NCBI GenBank assembly: GCA_000002435.2
Contig: CM018793.1
DNA from: Giardia intestinalis
Lineage: Eukaryota
Reading direction: 5' to 3' (one strand)
Length of the DNA stretch: 64,000 nt
Shown: piece by piece, positions 6,001 to 57,494 of the stretch
Position numbering within the stretch: the stretch's first letter is position 1
Layout: every line of letters starts with the position of its first letter
Translations under genes and position numbers: made by a program
The notes under the pieces: generated by a model
What the model was told of the DNA's origin: nothing
The model's database searches: none
Seen by the model: only the letters and a program-made list of their open reading frames with translations

Positions 6001-9000
6001 NNNNNNNNNNNNNNNNNNNNNNNNNNNNNNNNNNNNNNNNNNNNNNNNNNNNNNNNNNNNNNNNNNNNNNNNNNNNNNNNNNNNNNNNNNNNNNNNNNNN
6101 NNNNNNNNNNNNNNNNNNNNNNNNNNNNNNNNNNNNNNNNNNNNNNNNNNNNNNNNNNNNNNNNNNNNNNNNNNNNNNNNNNNNNNNNNNNNNNNNNNNN
6201 NNNNNNNNNNNNNNNNNNNNNNNNNNNNNNNNNNNNNNNNNNNNNNNNNNNNNNNNNNNNNNNNNNNNNNNNNNNNNNNNNNNNNNNNNNNNNNNNNNNN
6301 NNNNNNNNNNNNNNNNNNNNNNNNNNNNNNNNNNNNNNNNNNNNNNNNNNNNNNNNNNNNNNNNNNNNNNNNNNNNNNNNNNNNNNNNNNNNNNNNNNNN
6401 NNNNNNNNNNNNNNNNNNNNNNNNNNNNNNNNNNNNNNNNNNNNNNNNNNNNNNNNNNNNNNNNNNNNNNNNNNNNNNNNNNNNNNNNNNNNNNNNNNNN
6501 NNNNNNNNNNNNNNNNNNNNNNNNNNNNNNNNNNNNNNNNNNNNNNNNNNNNNNNNNNNNNNNNNNNNNNNNNNNNNNNNNNNNNNNNNNNNNNNNNNNN
6601 NNNNNNNNNNNNNNNNNNNNNNNNNNNNNNNNNNNNNNNNNNNNNNNNNNNNNNNNNNNNNNNNNNNNNNNNNNNNNNNNNNNNNNNNNNNNNNNNNNNN
6701 NNNNNNNNNNNNNNNNNNNNNNNNNNNNNNNNNNNNNNNNNNNNNNNNNNNNNNNNNNNNNNNNNNNNNNNNNNNNNNNNNNNNNNNNNNNNNNNNNNNN
6801 NNNNNNNNNNNNNNNNNNNNNNNNNNNNNNNNNNNNNNNNNNNNNNNNNNNNNNNNNNNNNNNNNNNNNNNNNNNNNNNNNNNNNNNNNNNNNNNNNNNN
6901 NNNNNNNNNNNNNNNNNNNNNNNNNNNNNNNNNNNNNNNNNNNNNNNNNNNNNNNNNNNNNNNNNNNNNNNNNNNNNNNNNNNNNNNNNNNNNNNNNNNN
7001 NNNNNNNNNNNNNNNNNNNNNNNNNNNNNNNNNNNNNNNNNNNNNNNNNNNNNNNNNNNNNNNNNNNNNNNNNNNNNNNNNNNNNNNNNNNNNNNNNNNN
7101 NNNNNNNNNNNNNNNNNNNNNNNNNNNNNNNNNNNNNNNNNNNNNNNNNNNNNNNNNNNNNNNNNNNNNNNNNNNNNNNNNNNNNNNNNNNNNNNNNNNN
7201 NNNNNNNNNNNNNNNNNNNNNNNNNNNNNNNNNNNNNNNNNNNNNNNNNNNNNNNNNNNNNNNNNNNNNNNNNNNNNNNNNNNNNNNNNNNNNNNNNNNN
7301 NNNNNNNNNNNNNNNNNNNNNNNNNNNNNNNNNNNNNNNNNNNNNNNNNNNNNNNNNNNNNNNNNNNNNNNNNNNNNNNNNNNNNNNNNNNNNNNNNNNN
7401 NNNNNNNNNNNNNNNNNNNNNNNNNNNNNNNNNNNNNNNNNNNNNNNNNNNNNNNNNNNNNNNNNNNNNNNNNNNNNNNNNNNNNNNNNNNNNNNNNNNN
7501 NNNNNNNNNNNNNNNNNNNNNNNNNNNNNNNNNNNNNNNNNNNNNNNNNNNNNNNNNNNNNNNNNNNNNNNNNNNNNNNNNNNNNNNNNNNNNNNNNNNN
7601 NNNNNNNNNNNNNNNNNNNNNNNNNNNNNNNNNNNNNNNNNNNNNNNNNNNNNNNNNNNNNNNNNNNNNNNNNNNNNNNNNNNNNNNNNNNNNNNNNNNN
7701 NNNNNNNNNNNNNNNNNNNNNNNNNNNNNNNNNNNNNNNNNNNNNNNNNNNNNNNNNNNNNNNNNNNNNNNNNNNNNNNNNNNNNNNNNNNNNNNNNNNN
7801 NNNNNNNNNNNNNNNNNNNNNNNNNNNNNNNNNNNNNNNNNNNNNNNNNNNNNNNNNNNNNNNNNNNNNNNNNNNNNNNNNNNNNNNNNNNNNNNNNNNN
7901 NNNNNNNNNNNNNNNNNNNNNNNNNNNNNNNNNNNNNNNNNNNNNNNNNNNNNNNNNNNNNNNNNNNNNNNNNNNNNNNNNNNNNNNNNNNNNNNNNNNN
8001 NNNNNNNNNNNNNNNNNNNNNNNNNNNNNNNNNNNNNNNNNNNNNNNNNNNNNNNNNNNNNNNNNNNNNNNNNNNNNNNNNNNNNNNNNNNNNNNNNNNN
8101 NNNNNNNNNNNNNNNNNNNNNNNNNNNNNNNNNNNNNNNNNNNNNNNNNNNNNNNNNNNNNNNNNNNNNNNNNNNNNNNNNNNNNNNNNNNNNNNNNNNN
8201 NNNNNNNNNNNNNNNNNNNNNNNNNNNNNNNNNNNNNNNNNNNNNNNNNNNNNNNNNNNNNNNNNNNNNNNNNNNNNNNNNNNNNNNNNNNNNNNNNNNN
8301 NNNNNNNNNNNNNNNNNNNNNNNNNNNNNNNNNNNNNNNNNNNNNNNNNNNNNNNNNNNNNNNNNNNNNNNNNNNNNNNNNNNNNNNNNNNNNNNNNNNN
8401 NNNNNNNNNNNNNNNNNNNNNNNNNNNNNNNNNNNNNNNNNNNNNNNNNNNNNNNNNNNNNNNNNNNNNNNNNNNNNNNNNNNNNNNNNNNNNNNNNNNN
8501 NNNNNNNNNNNNNNNNNNNNNNNNNNNNNNNNNNNNNNNNNNNNNNNNNNNNNNNNNNNNNNNNNNNNNNNNNNNNNNNNNNNNNNNNNNNNNNNNNNNN
8601 NNNNNNNNNNNNNNNNNNNNNNNNNNNNNNNNNNNNNNNNNNNNNNNNNNNNNNNNNNNNNNNNNNNNNNNNNNNNNNNNNNNNNNNNNNNNNNNNNNNN
8701 NNNNNNNNNNNNNNNNNNNNNNNNNNNNNNNNNNNNNNNNNNNNNNNNNNNNNNNNNNNNNNNNNNNNNNNNNNNNNNNNNNNNNNNNNNNNNNNNNNNN
8801 NNNNNNNNNNNNNNNNNNNNNNNNNNNNNNNNNNNNNNNNNNNNNNNNNNNNNNNNNNNNNNNNNNNNNNNNNNNNNNNNNNNNNNNNNNNNNNNNNNNN
8901 NNNNNNNNNNNNNNNNNNNNNNNNNNNNNNNNNNNNNNNNNNNNNNNNNNNNNNNNNNNNNNNNNNNNNNNNNNNNNNNNNNNNNNNNNNNNNNNNNNNN

Positions 9001-51832: not shown

Positions 51833-53194
51833 CTGCTGGGGCTGTACATGAGCAGCCATTACCCCCAATATGCCTTAGCGGTACCTTGAGGATCTACTAG
51901 TGTGCCTAGGGGGTTACTACATGCCACACGACGCTGCTGAGCATTGGATGCCCCTGGTACCAGGAAGTACTTATTATTCTCATTAACAGCGGTACAGACA
52001 CCGTTGGCTGCTGTCTTGCACATGATTCCGGTGATTGACACTATACAACCACCCATTAATGAAGTATCCGTAGTACAGATGTACATAATGGTTATTCACA
52101 GTATTACTTTGACCCACTCACAACACACTCCATCATTGGTATCATATTTGTCTCTCCACAGTAGAACAGTAGTGCTTTGTGGTGCCCTGATCATCATTAT
52201 CATGGCATCACAAGCACCAGAGGTACCCCCCAGGCAGTATCATCCTCACATTTTGTACATGTAACAGGACTGGTACCCTCTGCTTGATAGTTCCTTACAG
52301 CAGTACACTTGAAAGTACTGGCCTCCATTTGCACTTAGCACCCCTCGATGCCCCCATTGTTTGTGTCACTACAGAGAGCACTTCTCCGGGTCTATGACCT
52401 CACAGGAAGAACCCTGCCTTAGGCAGGCATTTCCTCAGCAGTTTGTCTAGCATGTGGCACAGTTGCCCGTGACAGGGGGTGCATGTTACTGACCACTCCG
52501 TACTTTGTATCCCTCCAGGCATTCTTGCAATTGGTTGCACTTCTGCTCTTTAGCAAGCTTCAGCCGCAATGCCTTTGTTCTTTGGTTCTGAATCCGACGC
52601 TGCGGGATCACTGCACAAACGACACACGTTGTCTTCGGTCATAAAGAGACCGTTATCAGCTCCTTGACACCCGGCGTGTTCTTGTCACACGAGGTCGAGG
52701 TTCCATCAAGGTCGTCTCGGGTCTTACTGTATCACAAGCTGTGCACTTCGGCTTCTTGGTAGTCGAATCAACTTCACACTGGGTACATGCTGATCTATCG
52801 TGTTGCAGTCCCTACAAGTTCCGACTCTGGGTCAGCATAAGTGTTTCCAGTGCACTCATTACTATTCACGCATGCATTATCCTTCAGGAACGTATTTCCT
52901 TACAAGAGGTACACTGGGTCGCCGACGTCTCACAGGTCAGGCAAGAGTCCTTGCACTTCTCACATGCGCCGTAACTATTTGAAGTACCCTCTTGCATGCA
53001 GTACACGTGGCAGCCCTGTTACTGTCTGGCGCGTGCATGTGGCGCAGTCTCCACTCCTTAATCCATTCGCTCCTGTGGCATCATGACAGAGTATGCACTC
53101 CCCACCAGGGGTCACCTTGTCTGCCCATTCTGGAATATGTACTGACTTCTGTTTACAAGCAGTGCACAGTCCTCCCTCAGCCTTTGTGCATATC
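51833..53194 (-). pseudogene. Decayed VSP-family pseudogene (partial, runs into the N gap); many frameshifts and stops
   Basis: Reverse-complement translation gives recognisable VSP segments, for example ORF 51859..52086 (-) '...MGGCIVSITGIMCKTAANGVCTAVNENNKYFLVPGASNAQQRRVACSNPLGTLV', which aligns to 'YMGGCYKVDTVPGQHMCKTAANGVCTAVNANNRYFIVPGATNQNQSVLACSNSLGTLV' of the 618-aa unit. The frame is broken repeatedly. For example 52200-52290 reads 'acatgtacaaaatgtgaggatgatactgcctgggggg' against the intact 'tgcaccaagatctgtgaagatgatactgcctgtggagga'. The 5' end at 53150-53194 is identical to the unit junction at 55473-55511 (agtgagatatgcacaaaggctgagggaggactgtgcactgcttg). Confidence 0.7.
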
Positions 53195-53196
53195 TC

Positions 53197-53229
53197 ACTC
53201 CACTATCATACTATCACCCTCTATCACAC
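53197..53229 (-). repeat. Inter-unit short tandem repeat, GTGATAR-type (about 3 copies) in the VSP 3' UTR or spacer
   Basis: Plus strand reads 'cactccactatcatactatcaccctctatcacacc', which on the sense strand is GTGATAGAGGGTGATAGTATGATAGTGGAGTG. This is near-identical to 55505..55538. Confidence 0.6.
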
Positions 53230-53240
53230 CATTGTACAGC

Positions 53241-53247
53241 ATTCACT
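53241..53247 (-). terminator. Putative Giardia polyadenylation signal AGTGAAT (AGTRAAY) after the remnant stop
   Basis: Plus strand 'attcact' 53241-53247 is the reverse complement of AGTGAAT. It lies 8 nt 3' of the stop codon TGA (plus 'tca' 53255-53257). Confidence 0.55.
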
Positions 53248-53254
53248 ACCCAAG

Positions 53255-53350
53255 TCACGCCTTCCCCTGCACACGAACCACCAGCAGAGGAAGCCCACGA
53301 GGCCCCCACGACGAGCGACCACAGCCACGAGACCCCACGCGATGGAGACC
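53255..53350 (-). pseudogene. Remnant of a VSP 3' end (diverged, frameshifted TM helix + CRGKA + TGA)
   Basis: Reverse complement reads '...tgggggcctcgtgggcttcctctgctggtggttcgtgtgcaggggaaggcgtga'. Apart from a 1-nt deletion this matches the intact '...ggg ggc ctc gtg ggc ttc ctc tgc tgg tgg ttc gtg tgc agg ggg aag gcg tga' (GLVGFLCWWFVCRGKA*). Upstream of about 53350 the similarity to VSP stops. Confidence 0.65.
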
Positions 53351-54230
53351 CGCATTGGAGAGCCCGCCCCTGGTGTGGTACTTCATAGACACACAGGAGG
53401 TCCCACTGCTGTCTAGACTGTACTCCCCAATACGATACCACTTACCGCCTACACTTCAACGCTCATCTCGAACCACACAAGCATACTTGATTCGCTCCGA
53501 TCGCCCTAGCGACGAAGACGGACCTTCTAATCGTCGATACAACACCCTAACACACCTCGTTGTTACTTGACCTCAATACGTGTCACATACATACAGGTGA
53601 CAATGATCGCAGGCACAAGATGCATAGCCCGACCCCTGCACTTCAGAATGCATATGCGGGGTCCCCCGCCAAACATGACGGCGCCACTCCCACCACAGCT
53701 GCTGCAGAAACATATATAATCTCGATAGATAAGGGCTATCAAACCTGAGACGTCGGAGAGTCCGCAATCGGAAGAAAGAACGGAAGGCCTGACGCGTAAG
53801 AGTAGCAAATGCGCATCAATCCGTGAGAGAACCTTCGTGCGCGCCACGAGAAGCCCAGTAGAGCTCTTACAATAGCCAAACGCCTCACAGGAGATGACTA
53901 TTGAACCTGATAACATAATGAGCGATTAGTGAGCACACCACAGCGGGACCATATGACGAGCCAGAACCATGACACTCAGAAAATTCAAGCAAAGTTGTTT
54001 CCTTAGTAGATAGGTGCTACTATTGTTCGTCAACCTGCAGAGTTAACACTACAGCGGTCCAGATGGATACAGCAGCCAGTTTTGAGACAGTGACAAGTGT
54101 CGTGGATCTTTCATCCGAACTTCTAGATTATCCAATATGAATGTCACTGAGTCGTCAAACCCTAACGAATAAATAACCGAACATAACTCACCTACGGGAC
54201 CAGCAATAATGCAGTGTAAGCAAACGCGCA
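53351..54230. other. Non-VSP DNA of unknown origin (about 880 bp, lower GC) interrupting a VSP unit
   Basis: No CXXC-rich reading frame on either strand. Only short ORFs of 62-117 aa with no recognisable family. The base composition is clearly less GC-rich than the flanks. One side is the truncation point of the 378-aa VSP fragment (54231..54240) and the other is the TM/CRGKA remnant (53350). Confidence 0.5.
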
Positions 54231-55511
54231 TCATCCTCTCTTCTGCTGAGCAGCAGAGTCCCCGGGAATCTTGAAGTAGCGCCCGACCGGTGTGGTGCAG
54301 AACCCACTTGGAGCCGCAGAGCACATGAGGTTGCCAGGAGCCTTCGACACATCATAGCAACCACCCATATAGAGGAAGTAGTTGTTGGTGCACCGCGTAC
54401 ATACGCCATCGGCGCAGGTATTACCTGCAAGTGCATTGGTGCACTTCCCATTAATAGGGCCATAGCCGGCGCCAACACACTTTGAACAGTAAGAGAGCAT
54501 GCTGCCGTCGTTGCCGACCACGATGGCGTCGCAGGCCCCTGCTGTCCCTCCACATGCAGTCTCATCTTCACAGGTCTTTGTACATGTGAGGTCGCTAGGT
54601 TCTCCGCTGGGTCTGTAGTTGGGCTTACATTCAGTGCATTTGAGGGACCCCACGCCGCCTGTGCACTCGGCACAGCCTGGAATCCCACTTGTCTCGTCAT
54701 CACAGAGAACGCATGTCTTAGGCGGGCCATCCTTAAGGAAGTACCCCGGCATGCATCTTGTACATGTGTTGATTTGACCCGCTGTTCCGCACTCTGCGCA
54801 GTTTCCTGTGCAGGCCTCGCAGGCGTTTCCGTTGACTTTATACCCGTCGACACAAGCCTCGCAGGTGCCTTTTGCGGTGCACAGCTTGCAGTTCTGGACT
54901 CCGCCCTTACCATTGTCGCCGCACTGCACGCACTTCGAGGCGTCGTAGAAGTGCGTCTTGCCCACTTTGCACTCGGCCTCATCAACACAGGTCGTTGTCC
55001 CATCCAGCTCGTCTCTGACCGTCTTACTACCGCAGTCGGTGCACTTCGGCTTTCCCGTGGCGTCGTCGTATGCACACGCGGTGCATCCTTGTATCTCACT
55101 GCAGGCCTTACAGGTCCAGGTCTTCTTGTCCGCATAGTTACCATTGTCACATCCACCAGCATCTACACAAGTGTTACCATCCTTCAGGTACTTCCCCTCA
55201 ACGCAGGCGGTACACTGAGTCGGAGTATCAGCTGAGCAAGCAGAGCAGCCGTCTCCGCACTTCACACATGCACTGTCCTTCGTAACGAACCCTGCTTGAC
55301 ACTCTGTACACGTGGCCGGTCCGCTAGTGCCCGTGTGGGAGCATTCTGAGCATCCAGCGACTCCCATGACCCCGTTTCTATCTGTCGTATCAGAGCACAG
55401 TATGCACTCACTACCCTTCTCTGGTGTTGCAGCCGGGTTCTTGAACAGGCCGTTATCTGCCTTACAAGCAGTGCACAGTCCTCCCTCAGCCTTTGTGCAT
55501 ATCTCACTCCA
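54231..55511 (-). pseudogene. Truncated VSP unit with no start codon and no C-terminal TM/CRGKA; the ORF ends ...GDSAAQQKRG*
   Basis: The ORF track's 54231..55367 (-) 378 aa is CXXC-rich and contains 'NNYFLYMGGCYDV' (a GGCY motif). The frame stays open upstream to the in-frame TAG at 55512-55514 (...*WSEICTKAEGGLCTACKADNGLFKNPAATPEKGSECILCSD...). Its last 110 or so codons are nearly identical to codons of the complete gene at 61250-61584. The ORF then terminates after AAQQ, where the complete gene continues SVLACGNP.... Downstream DNA is unrelated. Confidence 0.75.
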
Positions 55512-55538
55512 CTATCATACTATCACCCTCTATCACAC
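55507..55538 (-). repeat. Inter-unit short tandem repeat, GTGATAR-type (about 3 copies)
   Basis: Plus strand reads 'cactccactatcatactatcaccctctatcacac'. It lies between the stop of the 618-codon unit (55563) and the TAG/TGG/AGT/GAG/ATA/TGC start of the next unit. Confidence 0.6.
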
Positions 55539-55548
55539 ATTGTACAGC

Positions 55549-55555
55549 ATTCACT
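55549..55555 (-). terminator. Putative polyadenylation signal AGTGAAT, 8 nt after the TGA of the 618-codon VSP unit
   Basis: Plus strand 'attcact' 55549-55555 and stop 'tca' 55563-55565. Sense strand reads ...AAG GCG TGA cttgggtAGTGAATgctgtaca. Confidence 0.6.
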
Positions 55556-55562
55556 ACCCAAG

Positions 55563-57419
55563 TCACGCCTTCCCCCTGCACACGAACCACCAGCAGAGGA
55601 AGCCCACGAGGCCCCCCACGACAGCGATGACAGCCACGGAGATCCCTGCTATGGCACCAGTACTGAGGCCGCTTCTGTTGCCCCCGCTGGGCTTGGTGGA
55701 CACGCACGCCTCACCCTCCAGCCTGTAGTCGTCCCCACACTGGCCGCACTTGTTCTCCTCGCTGCACCTGACGCACCCGTCGATATTGCAGGCGATGCAC
55801 TTCGTTCCGTCTGTGTTCGGCCTCTGGTCTTTACTGGTACAGGCCTCGCACTTATCGCCTGCTCCACAGTGCGAGCATCCGTCAACGGTACATGCGAAGC
55901 ACCCGCTCCCAGCCAGGTTGGGCTTGTTGTTGTTGGTACACGCTGTACACACAGCAGCAGTCATACCAGTCTCAGATGGAGCTGCTGGGGCCGTACATGC
56001 CGAACAGCCATCTACCCCCACATATGCCTTAGAGGTATCACCAGTGCCTACTAGTGTGCCAAGGGAGTTGCTACATGCCAATACAGACTGATTCTGATTG
56101 GTTGCCCCAGGGACTATGAAGTACCTATTGTTGGCATTAACAGCAGTACAGACACCGTTGGCTGCTGTCTTGCACATATGTTGTCCAGGTACTGTATCAA
56201 CCTTGTAACAACCTCCCATATACAAGAAGTAGTTGTTAGTGCATTGTGTACATACACCTTGATCACATTGATTATTTGCTTTAGCACTATTACACTTCCC
56301 ATCTATAGGATACGTATTAGCTTCTCCACAGTATGAGCAATAATGATGCTCTACACCCTTATCATCAATCACTATTGCATCGCAGGCACCAGAAGTTCCT
56401 CCACAGGCAGTATCATCTTCACAGATCTTGGTGCATGTGACAGAGCCAGTACTGCCCTCCTTGCGATAGTTAGGCTTACAGTCAGTGCACTTGAAAGCAC
56501 CGTTGTTAGAGCAGACACTGCAGCCTTCGCGACCCTTATCGTCTACGCTATCGCATGGGACGCACTTCTTCCCCTGTTGATCTGTAGTAGTTACTAAGAA
56601 GTATCCAGTCTTGCAGGTTTCACACTTATTTGGATCACCAGCAACAGAGCATGTGGCACAGTTATCACCACACTTGTCTGTACATGTACTAGTACCACTA
56701 TCAAAGAAGTATCCATCGAGACAGGCTGAGCAGGTTGGATTGTCACTTCCTGTTTTCGTACATGTCTTGCAGTTGGCCTTTCCTTCGTTACCAAGAGTTG
56801 AATCTGTCACATCACTACAAAGAGCACACGTTTTGTCCTCCTTCATAAATAAGGCCTCGTCAGCGCCCTCGCATCCTTCAAGCGTCTTCGCCACGCAGGT
56901 CGATGTCCCGTCGAGGGCCGTCCTGGGGGTCTTATTGGTCCCGCAGTTAGTGCACTTCGGCTTCCCCGTGGCCTTGTCGAAGGAGCATGCCGTGCACTCT
57001 GCGTGTATCGTACTACATGCCTTGCATGTTCCCGACTCCGGGTCAGCATAAGTGTTTCCATCGCATCCAGTATCTTGTACACATTGATTACTCTTCAGGT
57101 ACTTCCCCTCTGGGCACGATGTACAATGATTCTGACCACTTCCATCGCAGGTCAGACAAGCTTCATTACATTTGACACATGTCTGAGAGTTCTTGTAGTA
57201 TCCATCTTGGCACTCTGTACACGTGGCAGGTCCTGGACTACTGTCTGACTTGGTACACTGTGCGCAGTTAGCCACCCCTGTATATCCATCTGCCCCATTG
57301 ACATCATGACAGAGGATGCACTCACTACCAGGCTTCTGAGGTGTAACTGGGTTCTTGAACAGGCCGTTATCTGCTTTACAAGCAGTGCACACTCCTCCCT
57401 CAGCCTTTGTGCATATCAC
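55563..57419 (-). CDS. VSP-family ORF, 618 codons, intact frame with C-terminal TM + CRGKA but no ATG or signal peptide (startless cassette or young pseudogene)
   Basis: Protein ends '...NRSGLSTGAIAGISVAVIAVVGGLVGFLCWWFVCRGKA'. It has many CXXC motifs and a GGCY motif 'NNYFLYMGGCYKV'. The first codon reported as M is GTG (57417-57419 plus 'cac'). It is preceded in frame by AGT, TGG, TAG (stop at 57426-57428). Immediately 5' are the 3' UTR repeats and the stop of the upstream unit. No hydrophobic signal peptide. Confidence 0.6.
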   Translation of the reverse strand: MICTKAEGGVCTACKADNGLFKNPVTPQKPGSECILCHDVNGADGYTGVANCAQCTKSDSSPGPATCTECQDGYYKNSQTCVKCNEACLTCDGSGQNHCTSCPEGKYLKSNQCVQDTGCDGNTYADPESGTCKACSTIHAECTACSFDKATGKPKCTNCGTNKTPRTALDGTSTCVAKTLEGCEGADEALFMKEDKTCALCSDVTDSTLGNEGKANCKTCTKTGSDNPTCSACLDGYFFDSGTSTCTDKCGDNCATCSVAGDPNKCETCKTGYFLVTTTDQQGKKCVPCDSVDDKGREGCSVCSNNGAFKCTDCKPNYRKEGSTGSVTCTKICEDDTACGGTSGACDAIVIDDKGVEHHYCSYCGEANTYPIDGKCNSAKANNQCDQGVCTQCTNNYFLYMGGCYKVDTVPGQHMCKTAANGVCTAVNANNRYFIVPGATNQNQSVLACSNSLGTLVGTGDTSKAYVGVDGCSACTAPAAPSETGMTAAVCTACTNNNKPNLAGSGCFACTVDGCSHCGAGDKCEACTSKDQRPNTDGTKCIACNIDGCVRCSEENKCGQCGDDYRLEGEACVSTKPSGGNRSGLSTGAIAGISVAVIAVVGGLVGFLCWWFVCRGKA

Positions 57420-57420
57420 A

Positions 57421-57470
57421 CTCCACTATCACTATCACCCATTATCACCCACTATCACCTTCTATCACAC
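57421..57470 (-). repeat. Inter-unit short tandem repeat, GTGATAR-type (about 5 copies)
   Basis: Plus strand reads 'ctccactatcactatcacccattatcacccactatcaccttctatcacac' (units ccactatcac / tatcac / ccattatcac / ccactatcac / cttctatcac). Copy number differs from the other spacers. Confidence 0.65.
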
Positions 57471-57480
57471 ATTGTACAGC

Positions 57481-57487
57481 ATTCACT
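57481..57487 (-). terminator. Putative polyadenylation signal AGTGAAT after the TGA of the 1024-codon unit
   Basis: Plus strand 'attcact' 57481-57487 and stop 'tca' 57495-57497. Confidence 0.6.
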
Positions 57488-57494
57488 ACCTAAG

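What the first reader, a model, noticed from the sequence alone, without database searches (positions are those of the whole stretch)
54241..54575. Sharp-edged block of about 335 bp, about 99% identical between the truncated fragment and the complete gene (61250..61584): a gene-conversion tract
54241-54575 matches 61250-61584 with only about 2 mismatches (ccccgggaatc/ccccaggaatc and ccctccacatgc/cccccgcatgc). It encodes ...TCEDETACGGTAGACDAIVVGNDGSMLSYCSKCVGAGYGPINGKCTNALAGNTCADGVCTRCTNNYFLYMGGCYDVSKAPGNLMCSAAPSGFCTTPVGRYFKIPGDSAAQQ. Immediately 5' of the block the two copies are only loosely related (gtacatgtgaggtcgctagg against gtacacgtatagtcatcccc). Immediately 3' the fragment ends. The remaining VSP body is about 70-80% similar, so this is a mosaic tract. 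That is the signature of recent segmental gene conversion, and one end of the tract coincides with the truncation breakpoint at 54240.
Basis: seen in the sequence. Interest (0 to 1): 0.6.

Follow-up and report, generated by a model that had tools for sequence, protein, structure and literature searches.

The report
Giardia surface-antigen genes swapped a segment
Two surface-antigen (VSP) genes 7 kb apart in a tandem array of the parasite Giardia share a 342-base stretch that is 99% identical, left by a recent copy-and-paste recombination of a kind already documented in this gene family, and the patchwork gene is most likely the complete one, not the broken fragment.

Summary
The block is real. 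Window 54243-54584 matches 61245-61586: 342 bp, 3 mismatches, all synonymous third-position transitions.

The sequence is Giardia intestinalis WB chromosome 5: a head-to-tail VSP array beside a 51.8-kb run of N. Outside the block the two genes are about 58% identical, not 70-80%. The right edge (54584/54585) is a true recombination breakpoint. It sits at the start of the family-wide conserved motif CTKTCEDxTACGG. The left edge is only where the fragment (VSP4) is truncated, so 342 bp is a minimum tract length.

A P15 (assemblage E) gene is 70-75% identical to the VSP4 body, the block and the rest of the 3' third of VSP1. It is only 54.5% identical to VSP1 upstream of the breakpoint, where VSP1 resembles its positional orthologue in isolate DH. 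So the complete head gene VSP1 is the chimera. It probably received about 950 bp from the VSP4 lineage.

Recombination among vsp genes and silent arrays as a possible reservoir are already published (Adam 2010; Xu 2020). This is a clean new example of a known process.

The parts
54243..54584 (-). Block copy A: the last 114 codons of the truncated array member VSP4 (CTKTCEDETACGG...KIPGDSAAQQ)
   Evidence: 342 bp, 99.1% identical to 61245-61586. Translation. It carries the derived state at all 3 mismatches relative to the P15 outgroup.
61245..61586 (-). Block copy B: codons 434-547 of the complete head-of-array gene VSP1
   Evidence: VSP1 has the P15 state at all 3 mismatch sites.
54546..54584 (-). 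Breakpoint zone in VSP4: the conserved motif CTKTCEDETACGG. High identity to VSP1 starts at its first codon (ACA|TGTACAAAG).
   Evidence: Nucleotide alignment of the motif in VSP1-4, DH and P15. The motif is conserved in all six genes.
61548..61586 (-). The same motif in VSP1. Upstream of it VSP1 is DH-like (GGAGDDYTC against GGANDDYTC). From it onward VSP1 is VSP4/P15-like.
60639..61244 (-). The rest of the 3' third of VSP1, of the same (P15-like) lineage as the block. This is the probable continuation of the transferred segment, with no counterpart left in VSP4.
   Evidence: One BLASTN match, 60643-61596 to P15 locus L002 9484-8543, stops within 10 bp of the block's right edge. VSP1-P15 identity is 75.0% here, and P15 is the nearest neighbour in 300/300 bootstraps.
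60639..62885 (-). VSP1: complete VSP (748 aa) with signal peptide, initiator TAATGTT, transmembrane domain and CRGKA tail. It is the first gene of the array.
   Evidence: 100% identical to the WB VSP KAE8304683.1 / XP_001705078.1. Pfam PF03302, E = 3.4e-43.
54231..55511 (-). VSP4: open 426-codon VSP fragment. It has no start codon or signal peptide at its 5' end and no transmembrane domain or CRGKA at its 3' end (it ends ...AAQQKRG*).
   Evidence: The reference annotates it from an internal ATG as 'High cysteine protein', 378 aa (P0121).
53396..54242 (.). 847 bp of non-VSP sequence that replaces the 3' end of VSP4. Origin unknown.
   Evidence: No similarity to the rest of the window, or to the DH or P15 loci. 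No Pfam or Rfam match.
55563..57425 (-). VSP3: array member truncated at the 5' end, open to CRGKA
   Evidence: The old annotation called it from an internal Met (P0099).
57495..60575 (-). VSP2: array member truncated at the 5' end, about 1026 codons, open to CRGKA
51833..53395 (-). Degenerate VSP remnants running into the N gap: psiVSP5 C-terminal end at about 53240-53395, and psiVSP6 at 53200-51833
   Evidence: 73-76% identical to VSP1-3, with about 6% single-base deletions.

Best explanation
The window is a head-to-tail ('linear') array of variant-specific surface protein genes on chromosome 5 of Giardia intestinalis WB. It holds one complete gene (VSP1), followed by members without a start codon or signal peptide (VSP2, VSP3, VSP4).

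The 342-bp block is what remains visible of a recent, non-reciprocal homologous recombination (gene conversion in the broad sense) between the VSP4 lineage and VSP1. One end of the exchange lies at the first codon of the conserved motif CTKTCEDxTACGG. That motif gives short sequence homology between otherwise about 50%-identical genes.

VSP4, or an intact predecessor or sister copy, was the source. VSP1 was the recipient. VSP1's original 3' third was replaced from the motif down to, probably, the conserved transmembrane/CRGKA end (about 950 bp). The result is a new chimeric antigen: a DH-like N-terminal two thirds joined to a P15-like C-terminal third. VSP4 lost its 3' end at 54243, which cuts the visible identity to 342 bp.

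Shown: the block, its significance, the breakpoint position, and the change of nearest relative across it. Inferred: the direction, the original length, the repair pathway, and the order of transfer and truncation.
For: - Identity and significance of the block.
- Source organism and gene identities.
- Change of nearest relative across the breakpoint:
  - In the 600 nt 5' of the breakpoint, VSP4-P15 is 70.9% identical (nearest neighbours in 300/300 bootstraps). VSP1-P15 is 54.5% and VSP1-VSP4 is 53.1%.
  - In the block, VSP1-VSP4 is 99.1%, and both are 70-71% identical to P15.
  - 3' of the block, VSP1-P15 is 75.0% (nearest neighbours in 300/300 bootstraps).
- P15 and VSP4 share the same indels and the SGEP(S/G)DLTC sequence just 5' of the breakpoint. 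VSP1 and DH share Q(S/L)NGGA(G/N)DDYTC.
- The BLASTN match of VSP1 to the P15 gene stops at 61596. That of VSP4 to the P15 gene (54265-55031) runs through the breakpoint at 54584.
- The flank upstream of VSP1 is syntenic with DH (91% over 946 bp), and the first ~660 bp of the gene are 84.6% identical to the DH gene. The 5' part of VSP1 is therefore native to this position.
- Both junctions are present in the independent 2007 Sanger assembly. XP_001705078.1 equals VSP1 over all 748 aa. XP_001703836.1 runs from the VSP4 body into the block.
- Literature: linear arrays whose downstream members lack the initiator, and GENECONV-significant recombination among WB vsp genes (PMC2996952). Pseudo-VSP arrays without start codons in this assembly (PMC7000408).
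Against: - The polarity rests on one outgroup gene (P15 P0053). That gene is itself decaying: it has lost cysteines and has a broken 5' end.
- The breakpoint motif may be a recurrent recombination hot spot, so an independent recombination at the same place in the P15 lineage cannot be excluded.
- P0146, a protein of the old WB annotation, shares the VSP4 body at about 99-100% and then diverges inside the same motif. It could be read as an unconverted sister copy of VSP4, which would favour VSP1-to-VSP4 transfer. It could also be a misassembly in the old draft.
- The ~950-bp length cannot be verified, because VSP4 lacks that part.
- The truncation junction at 54243 is seen in only one assembly. 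It lies 2.4 kb from an assembly gap, next to sequence of doubtful quality.
Confidence: 0.65

Rival explanations
1. A short (~335 bp) conversion tract was copied from the complete gene VSP1 into the fragment VSP4. VSP4 previously had a different sequence there, and one end coincides with the truncation.
For: - The block and its sharp right edge are real.
- P0146 from the 2007 annotation has the VSP4 body followed by a different 3' part. An unconverted sister copy would look like this.
Against: - The P15 gene is collinear with VSP4 across the breakpoint at uniform ~70% identity and shares its indels. VSP4 therefore already has the ancestral arrangement.
- This model needs about four events, including a chance restoration of the ancestral linkage. 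The alternative needs two.
- The P15-like lineage in VSP1 extends through its whole 3' third, with no discontinuity at 61245.
- A second tract end is not observable.
Confidence: 0.12
2. VSP1 descends directly from the P15-like gene, and its 5' two thirds were overwritten by DH-like sequence. VSP4 is a partial tandem duplicate made before that. On this model the breakpoint is the end of a 5' conversion tract in VSP1.
For: It explains the same change of nearest relative. VSP1 is mosaic relative to DH in its 5' part too.
Against: - The upstream flank, the first ~660 bp of VSP1, and the ~50 codons just before the breakpoint all match the DH gene at the syntenic position. The DH-like part therefore looks native to this site.
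- No donor near-identical to the 5' part of VSP1 was seen among 147 retrieved proteins; the best windows were 73-92%. Pseudo-VSPs are not in protein databases, however.
Confidence: 0.12
3. Assembly artefact. The block or one of its junctions results from collapse or a chimeric join of repeats beside the gap.
For: - The array abuts 51,832 N.
- 51833-53400 has an excess of single-base deletions typical of poorly polished long-read sequence.
- Gaps in this assembly were extended with PBJelly (PMC7000408).
Against: - The two copies differ by three transitions, so they are distinct sequences.
- Both the VSP1 chimera and the VSP4 body-to-block junction are present in proteins predicted from the independent Sanger assembly.
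- VSP4 keeps an open frame of 1281 bp.
- Only the truncation junction at 54243 lacks independent support.
Confidence: 0.04

Closest known systems
Recombination among vsp genes in linear arrays of Giardia lamblia WB (Adam et al. 2010, BMC Genomics 11:424, PMC2996952)
   Same: - Same organism and gene family.
- Head-to-tail arrays with ~60-bp spacers, where only the first gene has the initiator and upstream region.
- Significant Sawyer/GENECONV fragments between vsp genes.
- That paper speculates that arrays are a reservoir for new vsp genes.
   Different: That work tested short conserved 3' segments in sub-clades. It gave no polarity and no breakpoint map for this pair. Here a specific pair, a breakpoint at nucleotide resolution, and an outgroup-based direction (array-member lineage into head gene) are given.
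Pseudo-VSP arrays of Giardia muris exchanging sequence with intact VSPs (Xu et al. 2020, Microb Genom, PMC7641422)
   Same: Arrays of VSP copies without a signal peptide, transcriptionally silent, inferred from phylogeny to exchange segments with complete VSPs by recombination or segmental gene conversion.
   Different: The G. muris arrays lie next to telomeres and the evidence is relaxed phylogenetic clustering. Here the array is on WB chromosome 5 beside an internal assembly gap, and the evidence is a single 99%-identical tract with a mapped breakpoint.
Silent-cassette systems: Borrelia vlsE/vls cassettes, Trypanosoma brucei mosaic VSGs, Anaplasma msp2, Neisseria pilE/pilS
   Same: An expression-competent gene lies next to, or draws on, promoterless copies truncated at the 5' end. 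Segments are copied non-reciprocally into the complete gene using short conserved homology blocks.
   Different: In those systems conversion into a single expression site is the switching mechanism and happens during infection. Giardia switches among many complete vsp genes epigenetically or post-transcriptionally. Here there is evidence for one evolutionary event only, not for programmed or frequent conversion.

Membership tests
Giardia variant-specific surface protein (Pfam PF03302) | Cysteine-rich CXXC ectodomain matching the VSP profile | tested here: met
   PF03302 hits: VSP1 E = 3.4e-43, VSP2 1.1e-83, VSP3 7e-39, VSP4 4.3e-20.
Giardia variant-specific surface protein (Pfam PF03302) | N-terminal signal peptide and start codon; C-terminal transmembrane domain and CRGKA tail | tested here: met
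   Met for VSP1 only (MFQLIPLFVASALMAAC...FICRGKA). VSP2 and VSP3 have the transmembrane domain and CRGKA but no start or signal peptide. VSP4 has neither end, so it is a gene fragment, not a functional VSP. The signal peptide was judged by eye and by identity to the annotated VSP, not with a predictor.
vsp linear array (Adam 2010) | Head-to-tail genes separated by ~60-bp spacers; only the first gene has the PyAatgTT initiator | tested here: met
   Spacers are about 50-70 bp, each with an AGTGAA signal after the stop. VSP1 has TAATGTT at its ATG. VSP2-4 begin WS(V/E)ICTKA with no in-frame ATG.
Gene-conversion tract between paralogues | A segment of much higher identity than the rest of the alignment, significant by a Sawyer-type permutation test | tested here: met
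   Longest identical run is 284 sites against a maximum of 41 in 20,000 permutations. Identity is 99.1% in the block against about 58% outside it.
Gene-conversion tract between paralogues | Phylogenetic incongruence between the segment and its flank | tested here: met
   The nearest neighbour of VSP1 changes from VSP3 (5' of the breakpoint; DH-like in the last ~50 codons) to VSP4 (block) to P15 (3' of the block), each in at least 299/300 bootstraps.
Gene-conversion tract between paralogues | Both ends of the tract lie within homologous sequence (a patch, as distinct from a single crossover or a duplication end) | tested here: not met
   Only the right end (54584/61586) lies in homologous sequence. 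The left end is the truncation of VSP4. The original second end cannot be observed in this window.
Gene-conversion tract between paralogues | Non-reciprocal: the donor is unchanged and the recipient altered | tested here: inconclusive
   VSP4 keeps the outgroup (P15) arrangement, as expected of an unchanged donor. A test for a reciprocal product was negative: the 3' part of P0146 is not DH/VSP1-like. The test rests on one outgroup.
Silent-cassette antigenic variation (vlsE / VSG-mosaic type) | Repeated, ongoing segmental conversion from silent cassettes into an expressed gene during infection | not testable with these tools
   This needs time-series or population sequencing of this locus. Only one historical event is visible here.

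The most novel reading that the evidence does not exclude
The start-less members of Giardia linear arrays are working donor cassettes, not junk. Segments are copied from them into the complete, initiator-bearing head gene, with conserved motifs such as CTKTCEDxTACGG and the transmembrane/CRGKA end serving as recombination anchors. On this reading G. intestinalis has a DNA-level layer of antigen diversification, like vlsE or mosaic VSGs, on top of its epigenetic switching. This locus would be a caught example of array-member-to-head-gene transfer.
Probability: 0.12. Interest if true: 0.7.

Novelty: new member of a known kind. Interest (0 to 1): 0.28.

Why it matters
Recombination is accepted as a source of VSP diversity in Giardia. 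Well-resolved individual events with a mapped breakpoint and an inferred direction are few.

This pair suggests that sequence from the lineage of a now silent, truncated array member was built into a complete, expressible antigen gene. The joint falls in a conserved motif. If that is general, the roughly 200 pseudo-VSPs of the WB genome are part of the effective antigen repertoire. That bears on vaccine design based on VSPs and on how fast repertoires diverge between isolates.

As a single historical event it does not change the current picture.

Tried and rejected
The offset was corrected to 7002.
- The look-up of encoding contigs had no record for VSP1 (P0001) or for the chromosome 3 VSP P0003. 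The DNA of P0003, and of any second WB copy, could therefore not be compared.
- Two exact-pattern scans of metagenome contigs found nothing: one for the truncation junction, one for an internal 35-mer of the block.
- The 847-bp non-VSP segment has no BLASTN or TBLASTX similarity to the window or to the DH or P15 loci. It has no meaningful Pfam hit; the only match is T2SSM_b at E = 0.047, below the family cut-off. It has no Rfam hit.
- Reciprocal crossover hypothesis (VSP1 and P0146 as the two products of one exchange): rejected, because the 3' part of P0146 is not DH/VSP1-lineage.
- Target-site duplication around the 847-bp segment: CTGCTG occurs at 53406 and 54243, but also at 53699. A hexamer that common is not evidence.
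- Conservation as the cause of the block: rejected, because the other VSPs are only 57-71% identical to it.
- A literature search for the protein accessions found no paper naming these genes.

Full report
**What the window is.** Positions 1-51832 are N; real sequence runs from 51833 to 64000. The complete ORF 60642-62885 (minus strand, 748 aa) is 100% identical to a VSP of Giardia intestinalis WB clone C6, on a 4,018,654-bp record (KAE8304683.1 / XP_001705078.1). By my reading that record is chromosome 5 of the PacBio reference. In that reference, unjoined contigs were stitched with N runs sized from optical maps (PMC7000408).

All genes lie on the minus strand and form a head-to-tail array:
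- **VSP1**, 62885 to 60639. Complete: TAATGTT initiator, signal peptide, transmembrane domain, CRGKA.
- **VSP2**, 60575 to 57495, and **VSP3**, 57425 to 55563. Both are open to CRGKA but begin WSVICTKA directly after a spacer of about 50-70 bp, with no in-frame start.
- **VSP4**, 55511 to 54243. It has the same kind of 5' end, an open frame of 426 codons, and no transmembrane domain or CRGKA.
- 847 bp of unrelated sequence, 53396-54242.
- Degenerate VSP remnants from 53395 down to the gap.

This is the 'linear array' organisation described by Adam et al. 2010 (PMC2996952). It also matches the pseudo-VSP arrays of Xu et al. 2020.

**The observation.** BLASTN gives one ungapped match, 54243-54584 against 61245-61586: 342 bp with 3 mismatches, 99.1%. 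The mismatches (54264, 54549, 54552) are all synonymous third-position transitions. That gives dS of about 0.039 and dN of 0.

In a codon alignment the two genes share 1260 sites with 386 differences. The longest difference-free run is 284 sites, against a maximum of 41 in 20,000 permutations.

The right edge is abrupt. Identity is 99.1% in the block and 47.8% in the adjacent ~370 aligned nt (150 alignment codons). The left edge is the end of VSP sequence in VSP4.

**Not an artefact.** The copies differ at three sites. VSP1 as a chimera is encoded identically in the 2007 Sanger assembly (XP_001705078.1). A second old-assembly protein, XP_001703836.1 (P0147), runs from the VSP4 body through CEDETACGGTAGA into a frame-shifted reading of the block. 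Both junctions at the right edge are therefore seen in two independent data sets. The truncation junction at 54243 is not independently confirmed.

**Where the breakpoint is.** On the coding strand:
- VSP4 reads ...GACCTCACA|TGTACAAAGACCTGTGAAGATGAGACTGCATGT...
- VSP1 reads ...GACTATACG|TGTACAAAGACCTGTGAAGATGAGACTGCATGC...

High identity begins at the first codon of CTKTCEDETACGG. Versions of this motif are present in VSP1-4, in the DH gene and in the P15 gene. The exchange therefore used one of the few stretches of nucleotide homology that these genes share.

**Which gene is the mosaic.** Two related loci could be fetched.

L001 is from isolate DH (assemblage AII). It holds P0002. Its upstream flank is 91% identical over 946 bp to window 62906-63846, and the start of the gene is 84.6% identical to VSP1 62260-62916. 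P0002 is therefore the positional orthologue of VSP1.

L002 is from isolate P15 (assemblage E) and holds P0053. Nucleotide identities from codon alignments:

| Region | VSP4-P15 | VSP1-P15 | VSP1-VSP4 |
|---|---|---|---|
| 600 nt 5' of the breakpoint | 70.9% | 54.5% | 53.1% |
| Block | 70.2% | 71.1% | 99.1% |
| 3' of the block | no VSP4 sequence | 75.0% | no VSP4 sequence |

- Nearest-neighbour bootstraps are 300/300 for VSP4-P15 on the 5' side and for VSP1-P15 on the 3' side.
- VSP4 and P15 share indels and the sequence SGEP(S/G)DLTC immediately 5' of the motif. VSP1 and DH share Q(S/L)NGGA(G/N)DDYTC.
- The BLASTN match of VSP1 to the P15 gene (60643-61596) stops within 10 bp of the block's edge. 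That of VSP4 (54265-55031) runs straight through it.

The P15 gene therefore has the arrangement 'VSP4 body + block + VSP1 3' end' at uniform divergence. VSP4 preserves the ancestral linkage, and VSP1 is the chimera. The 5' flank of VSP1, its 5' coding part, and the ~50 codons before the motif all match the gene at the same position in DH. The simplest history is that the 3' third of VSP1 was replaced by sequence of the VSP4 lineage.

P15-like identity in VSP1 continues without a step from 61586 to the stop codon. The transferred piece was therefore probably about 950 bp, ending in the conserved transmembrane/CRGKA region. Only 342 bp can be seen because VSP4 is cut at 54243. At all three mismatches VSP1 has the P15 state, so the three changes arose on the VSP4 side.

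**Complications.**
- The cluster of the annotated VSP4 protein also contains P0146 (XP_001703944.1, 598 aa, old annotation). It matches the VSP4 body at about 99-100% and diverges just after ACGGT, inside the same motif.
  - If P0146 is real, it is a second gene carrying half of the VSP4 lineage, and the motif is a recurrent breakpoint.
That history needs more events, including a chance restoration of the P15 arrangement.
  - It may equally be a chimeric contig of the 11x Sanger draft.
- A reciprocal-crossover model (VSP1 and P0146 as the two products) fails, because the 3' part of P0146 is not of the DH/VSP1 lineage.
- VSP4 is itself a patchwork. Residues 31-120 are about 97-98% identical to a complete VSP on the 1,973,847-bp record (P0003) and to VSP S7 (P0081). 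The P15 locus has no BLASTN similarity there.
- VSP1 is also mosaic relative to DH in its middle part.

**Mechanism.** This part is inferred. A break in or near VSP1 would have been repaired by copying from a paralogue 7 kb away in the same orientation, or from the equivalent copy on a sister or homologous chromosome. Invasion and resolution would have occurred in conserved blocks. The repair pathway cannot be told from sequence. A simple unequal crossover is unlikely, because VSP2 and VSP3 are still present between the partners, and the sequence downstream of VSP4 is not that downstream of VSP1.

**Comparison with what is known.**
- Adam et al. 2010 showed GENECONV-significant recombination among WB vsp genes. 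They noted that downstream array members lack the initiator, and speculated that arrays are a reservoir.
- Xu et al. 2020 inferred exchange between pseudo-VSP arrays and intact VSPs in G. muris, and cite the same for G. intestinalis.
- A 2022 preprint repeats the reservoir idea.

The present case is therefore a new, well-resolved instance of a known process. What is added is the nucleotide-level breakpoint in a conserved motif and the outgroup-based direction toward the complete head gene.

The arrangement resembles silent-cassette systems (vlsE, mosaic VSG). The resemblance is structural only. Nothing here shows ongoing or programmed conversion.

**Verdict.**
- Observation: confirmed.
- Interpretation: partly supported. 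The exchange is real, but a two-ended 335-bp patch is not shown, and the direction is probably opposite to the one implied.
- Novelty: new member of a known kind.
- Interest: about 0.28.

Noticed in passing
window 1-51832: The first 51,832 positions are N. Only 12,168 bp of the window are real sequence, and the VSP array runs straight into this assembly gap.
   Followed up: partly
window 51833-53400: The VSP remnants next to the gap carry about 6% single-base deletions relative to intact array members: 26-36 deletions per ~550 bp, against 5-11 in comparisons of intact members. Either they are old decayed pseudogenes, or this is poorly polished long-read sequence at a gap edge. The second possibility would also cast doubt on the nearby truncation junction at 54243.
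   Followed up: partly
window 53396-54242: 847 bp of non-VSP sequence lie between the truncated VSP4 and the C-terminal remnant psiVSP5. There is no similarity to anything reachable and no convincing ORF. Whether it is an insertion, a rearrangement joint or a chimeric read is unknown.
   Followed up: partly
window 53153-53336 vs 55462-55646: A second high-identity patch (about 187 bp, 95.7%). It spans a gene junction: the 3' end of one member, the spacer and the first ~50 bp of the next. Beyond it the two regions are only about 75% alike.
   Followed up: no
window about 55152-55421 (VSP4 residues 31-120): This part of VSP4 is about 97-98% identical at the protein level to a complete VSP on the 1,973,847-bp WB record (P0003) and to VSP S7 (P0081). 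It has no BLASTN similarity to the P15 locus. It is probably another recent exchange, this one between chromosomes. The DNA of P0003 could not be fetched.
   Followed up: partly
window spacers 60576-60638, 57426-57494, 55512-55562, about 53201-53239: Every spacer has AGTGAA just after the stop codon. This is followed by TACAATG(G)TGTGATAG, an initiator-like CAATG with an ATG that runs into a stop after a few codons. Then come a variable number of GTGATAG-like repeats before the start-less WS(V/E)ICTKA.
   Followed up: no
L001 10001-13963 (isolate DH, AHGT01000028.1): At the syntenic position DH has a single VSP followed by an acyltransferase gene, with no array. That VSP is VSP1-like at its 5' end and just before the motif, but VSP2-like (78%) in the body. 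This suggests an array contraction by recombination between members, or a collapse in the DH assembly.
   Followed up: partly
protein P0146 (XP_001703944.1, old WB annotation): A 598-aa VSP with the VSP4 body (one residue different) joined to an unrelated 3' part. The switch lies inside the same CEDETACGGT motif. It is not among the new-assembly proteins retrieved. It could sit in the gap, be annotated as a pseudo-VSP, or be a chimeric contig of the old draft.
   Followed up: partly
window 55563-57425 (VSP3) vs P0099 (XP_001705784.1): The old annotation of VSP3 differs from the window at two nearby residues (ACENPLG against ACSNSLG). This is either a difference between assemblies or a second near-identical copy.
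   Followed up: no
L002 7400-9488 (isolate P15, ACVC01000194.1): The P15 gene used as outgroup seems to be decaying. Several conserved cysteines are replaced (CETRVDGY, PGYTAC, SDYGSK), and the VSP-like 5' region at about 7410-7744 is not in frame with the annotated ORF.
   Followed up: partly
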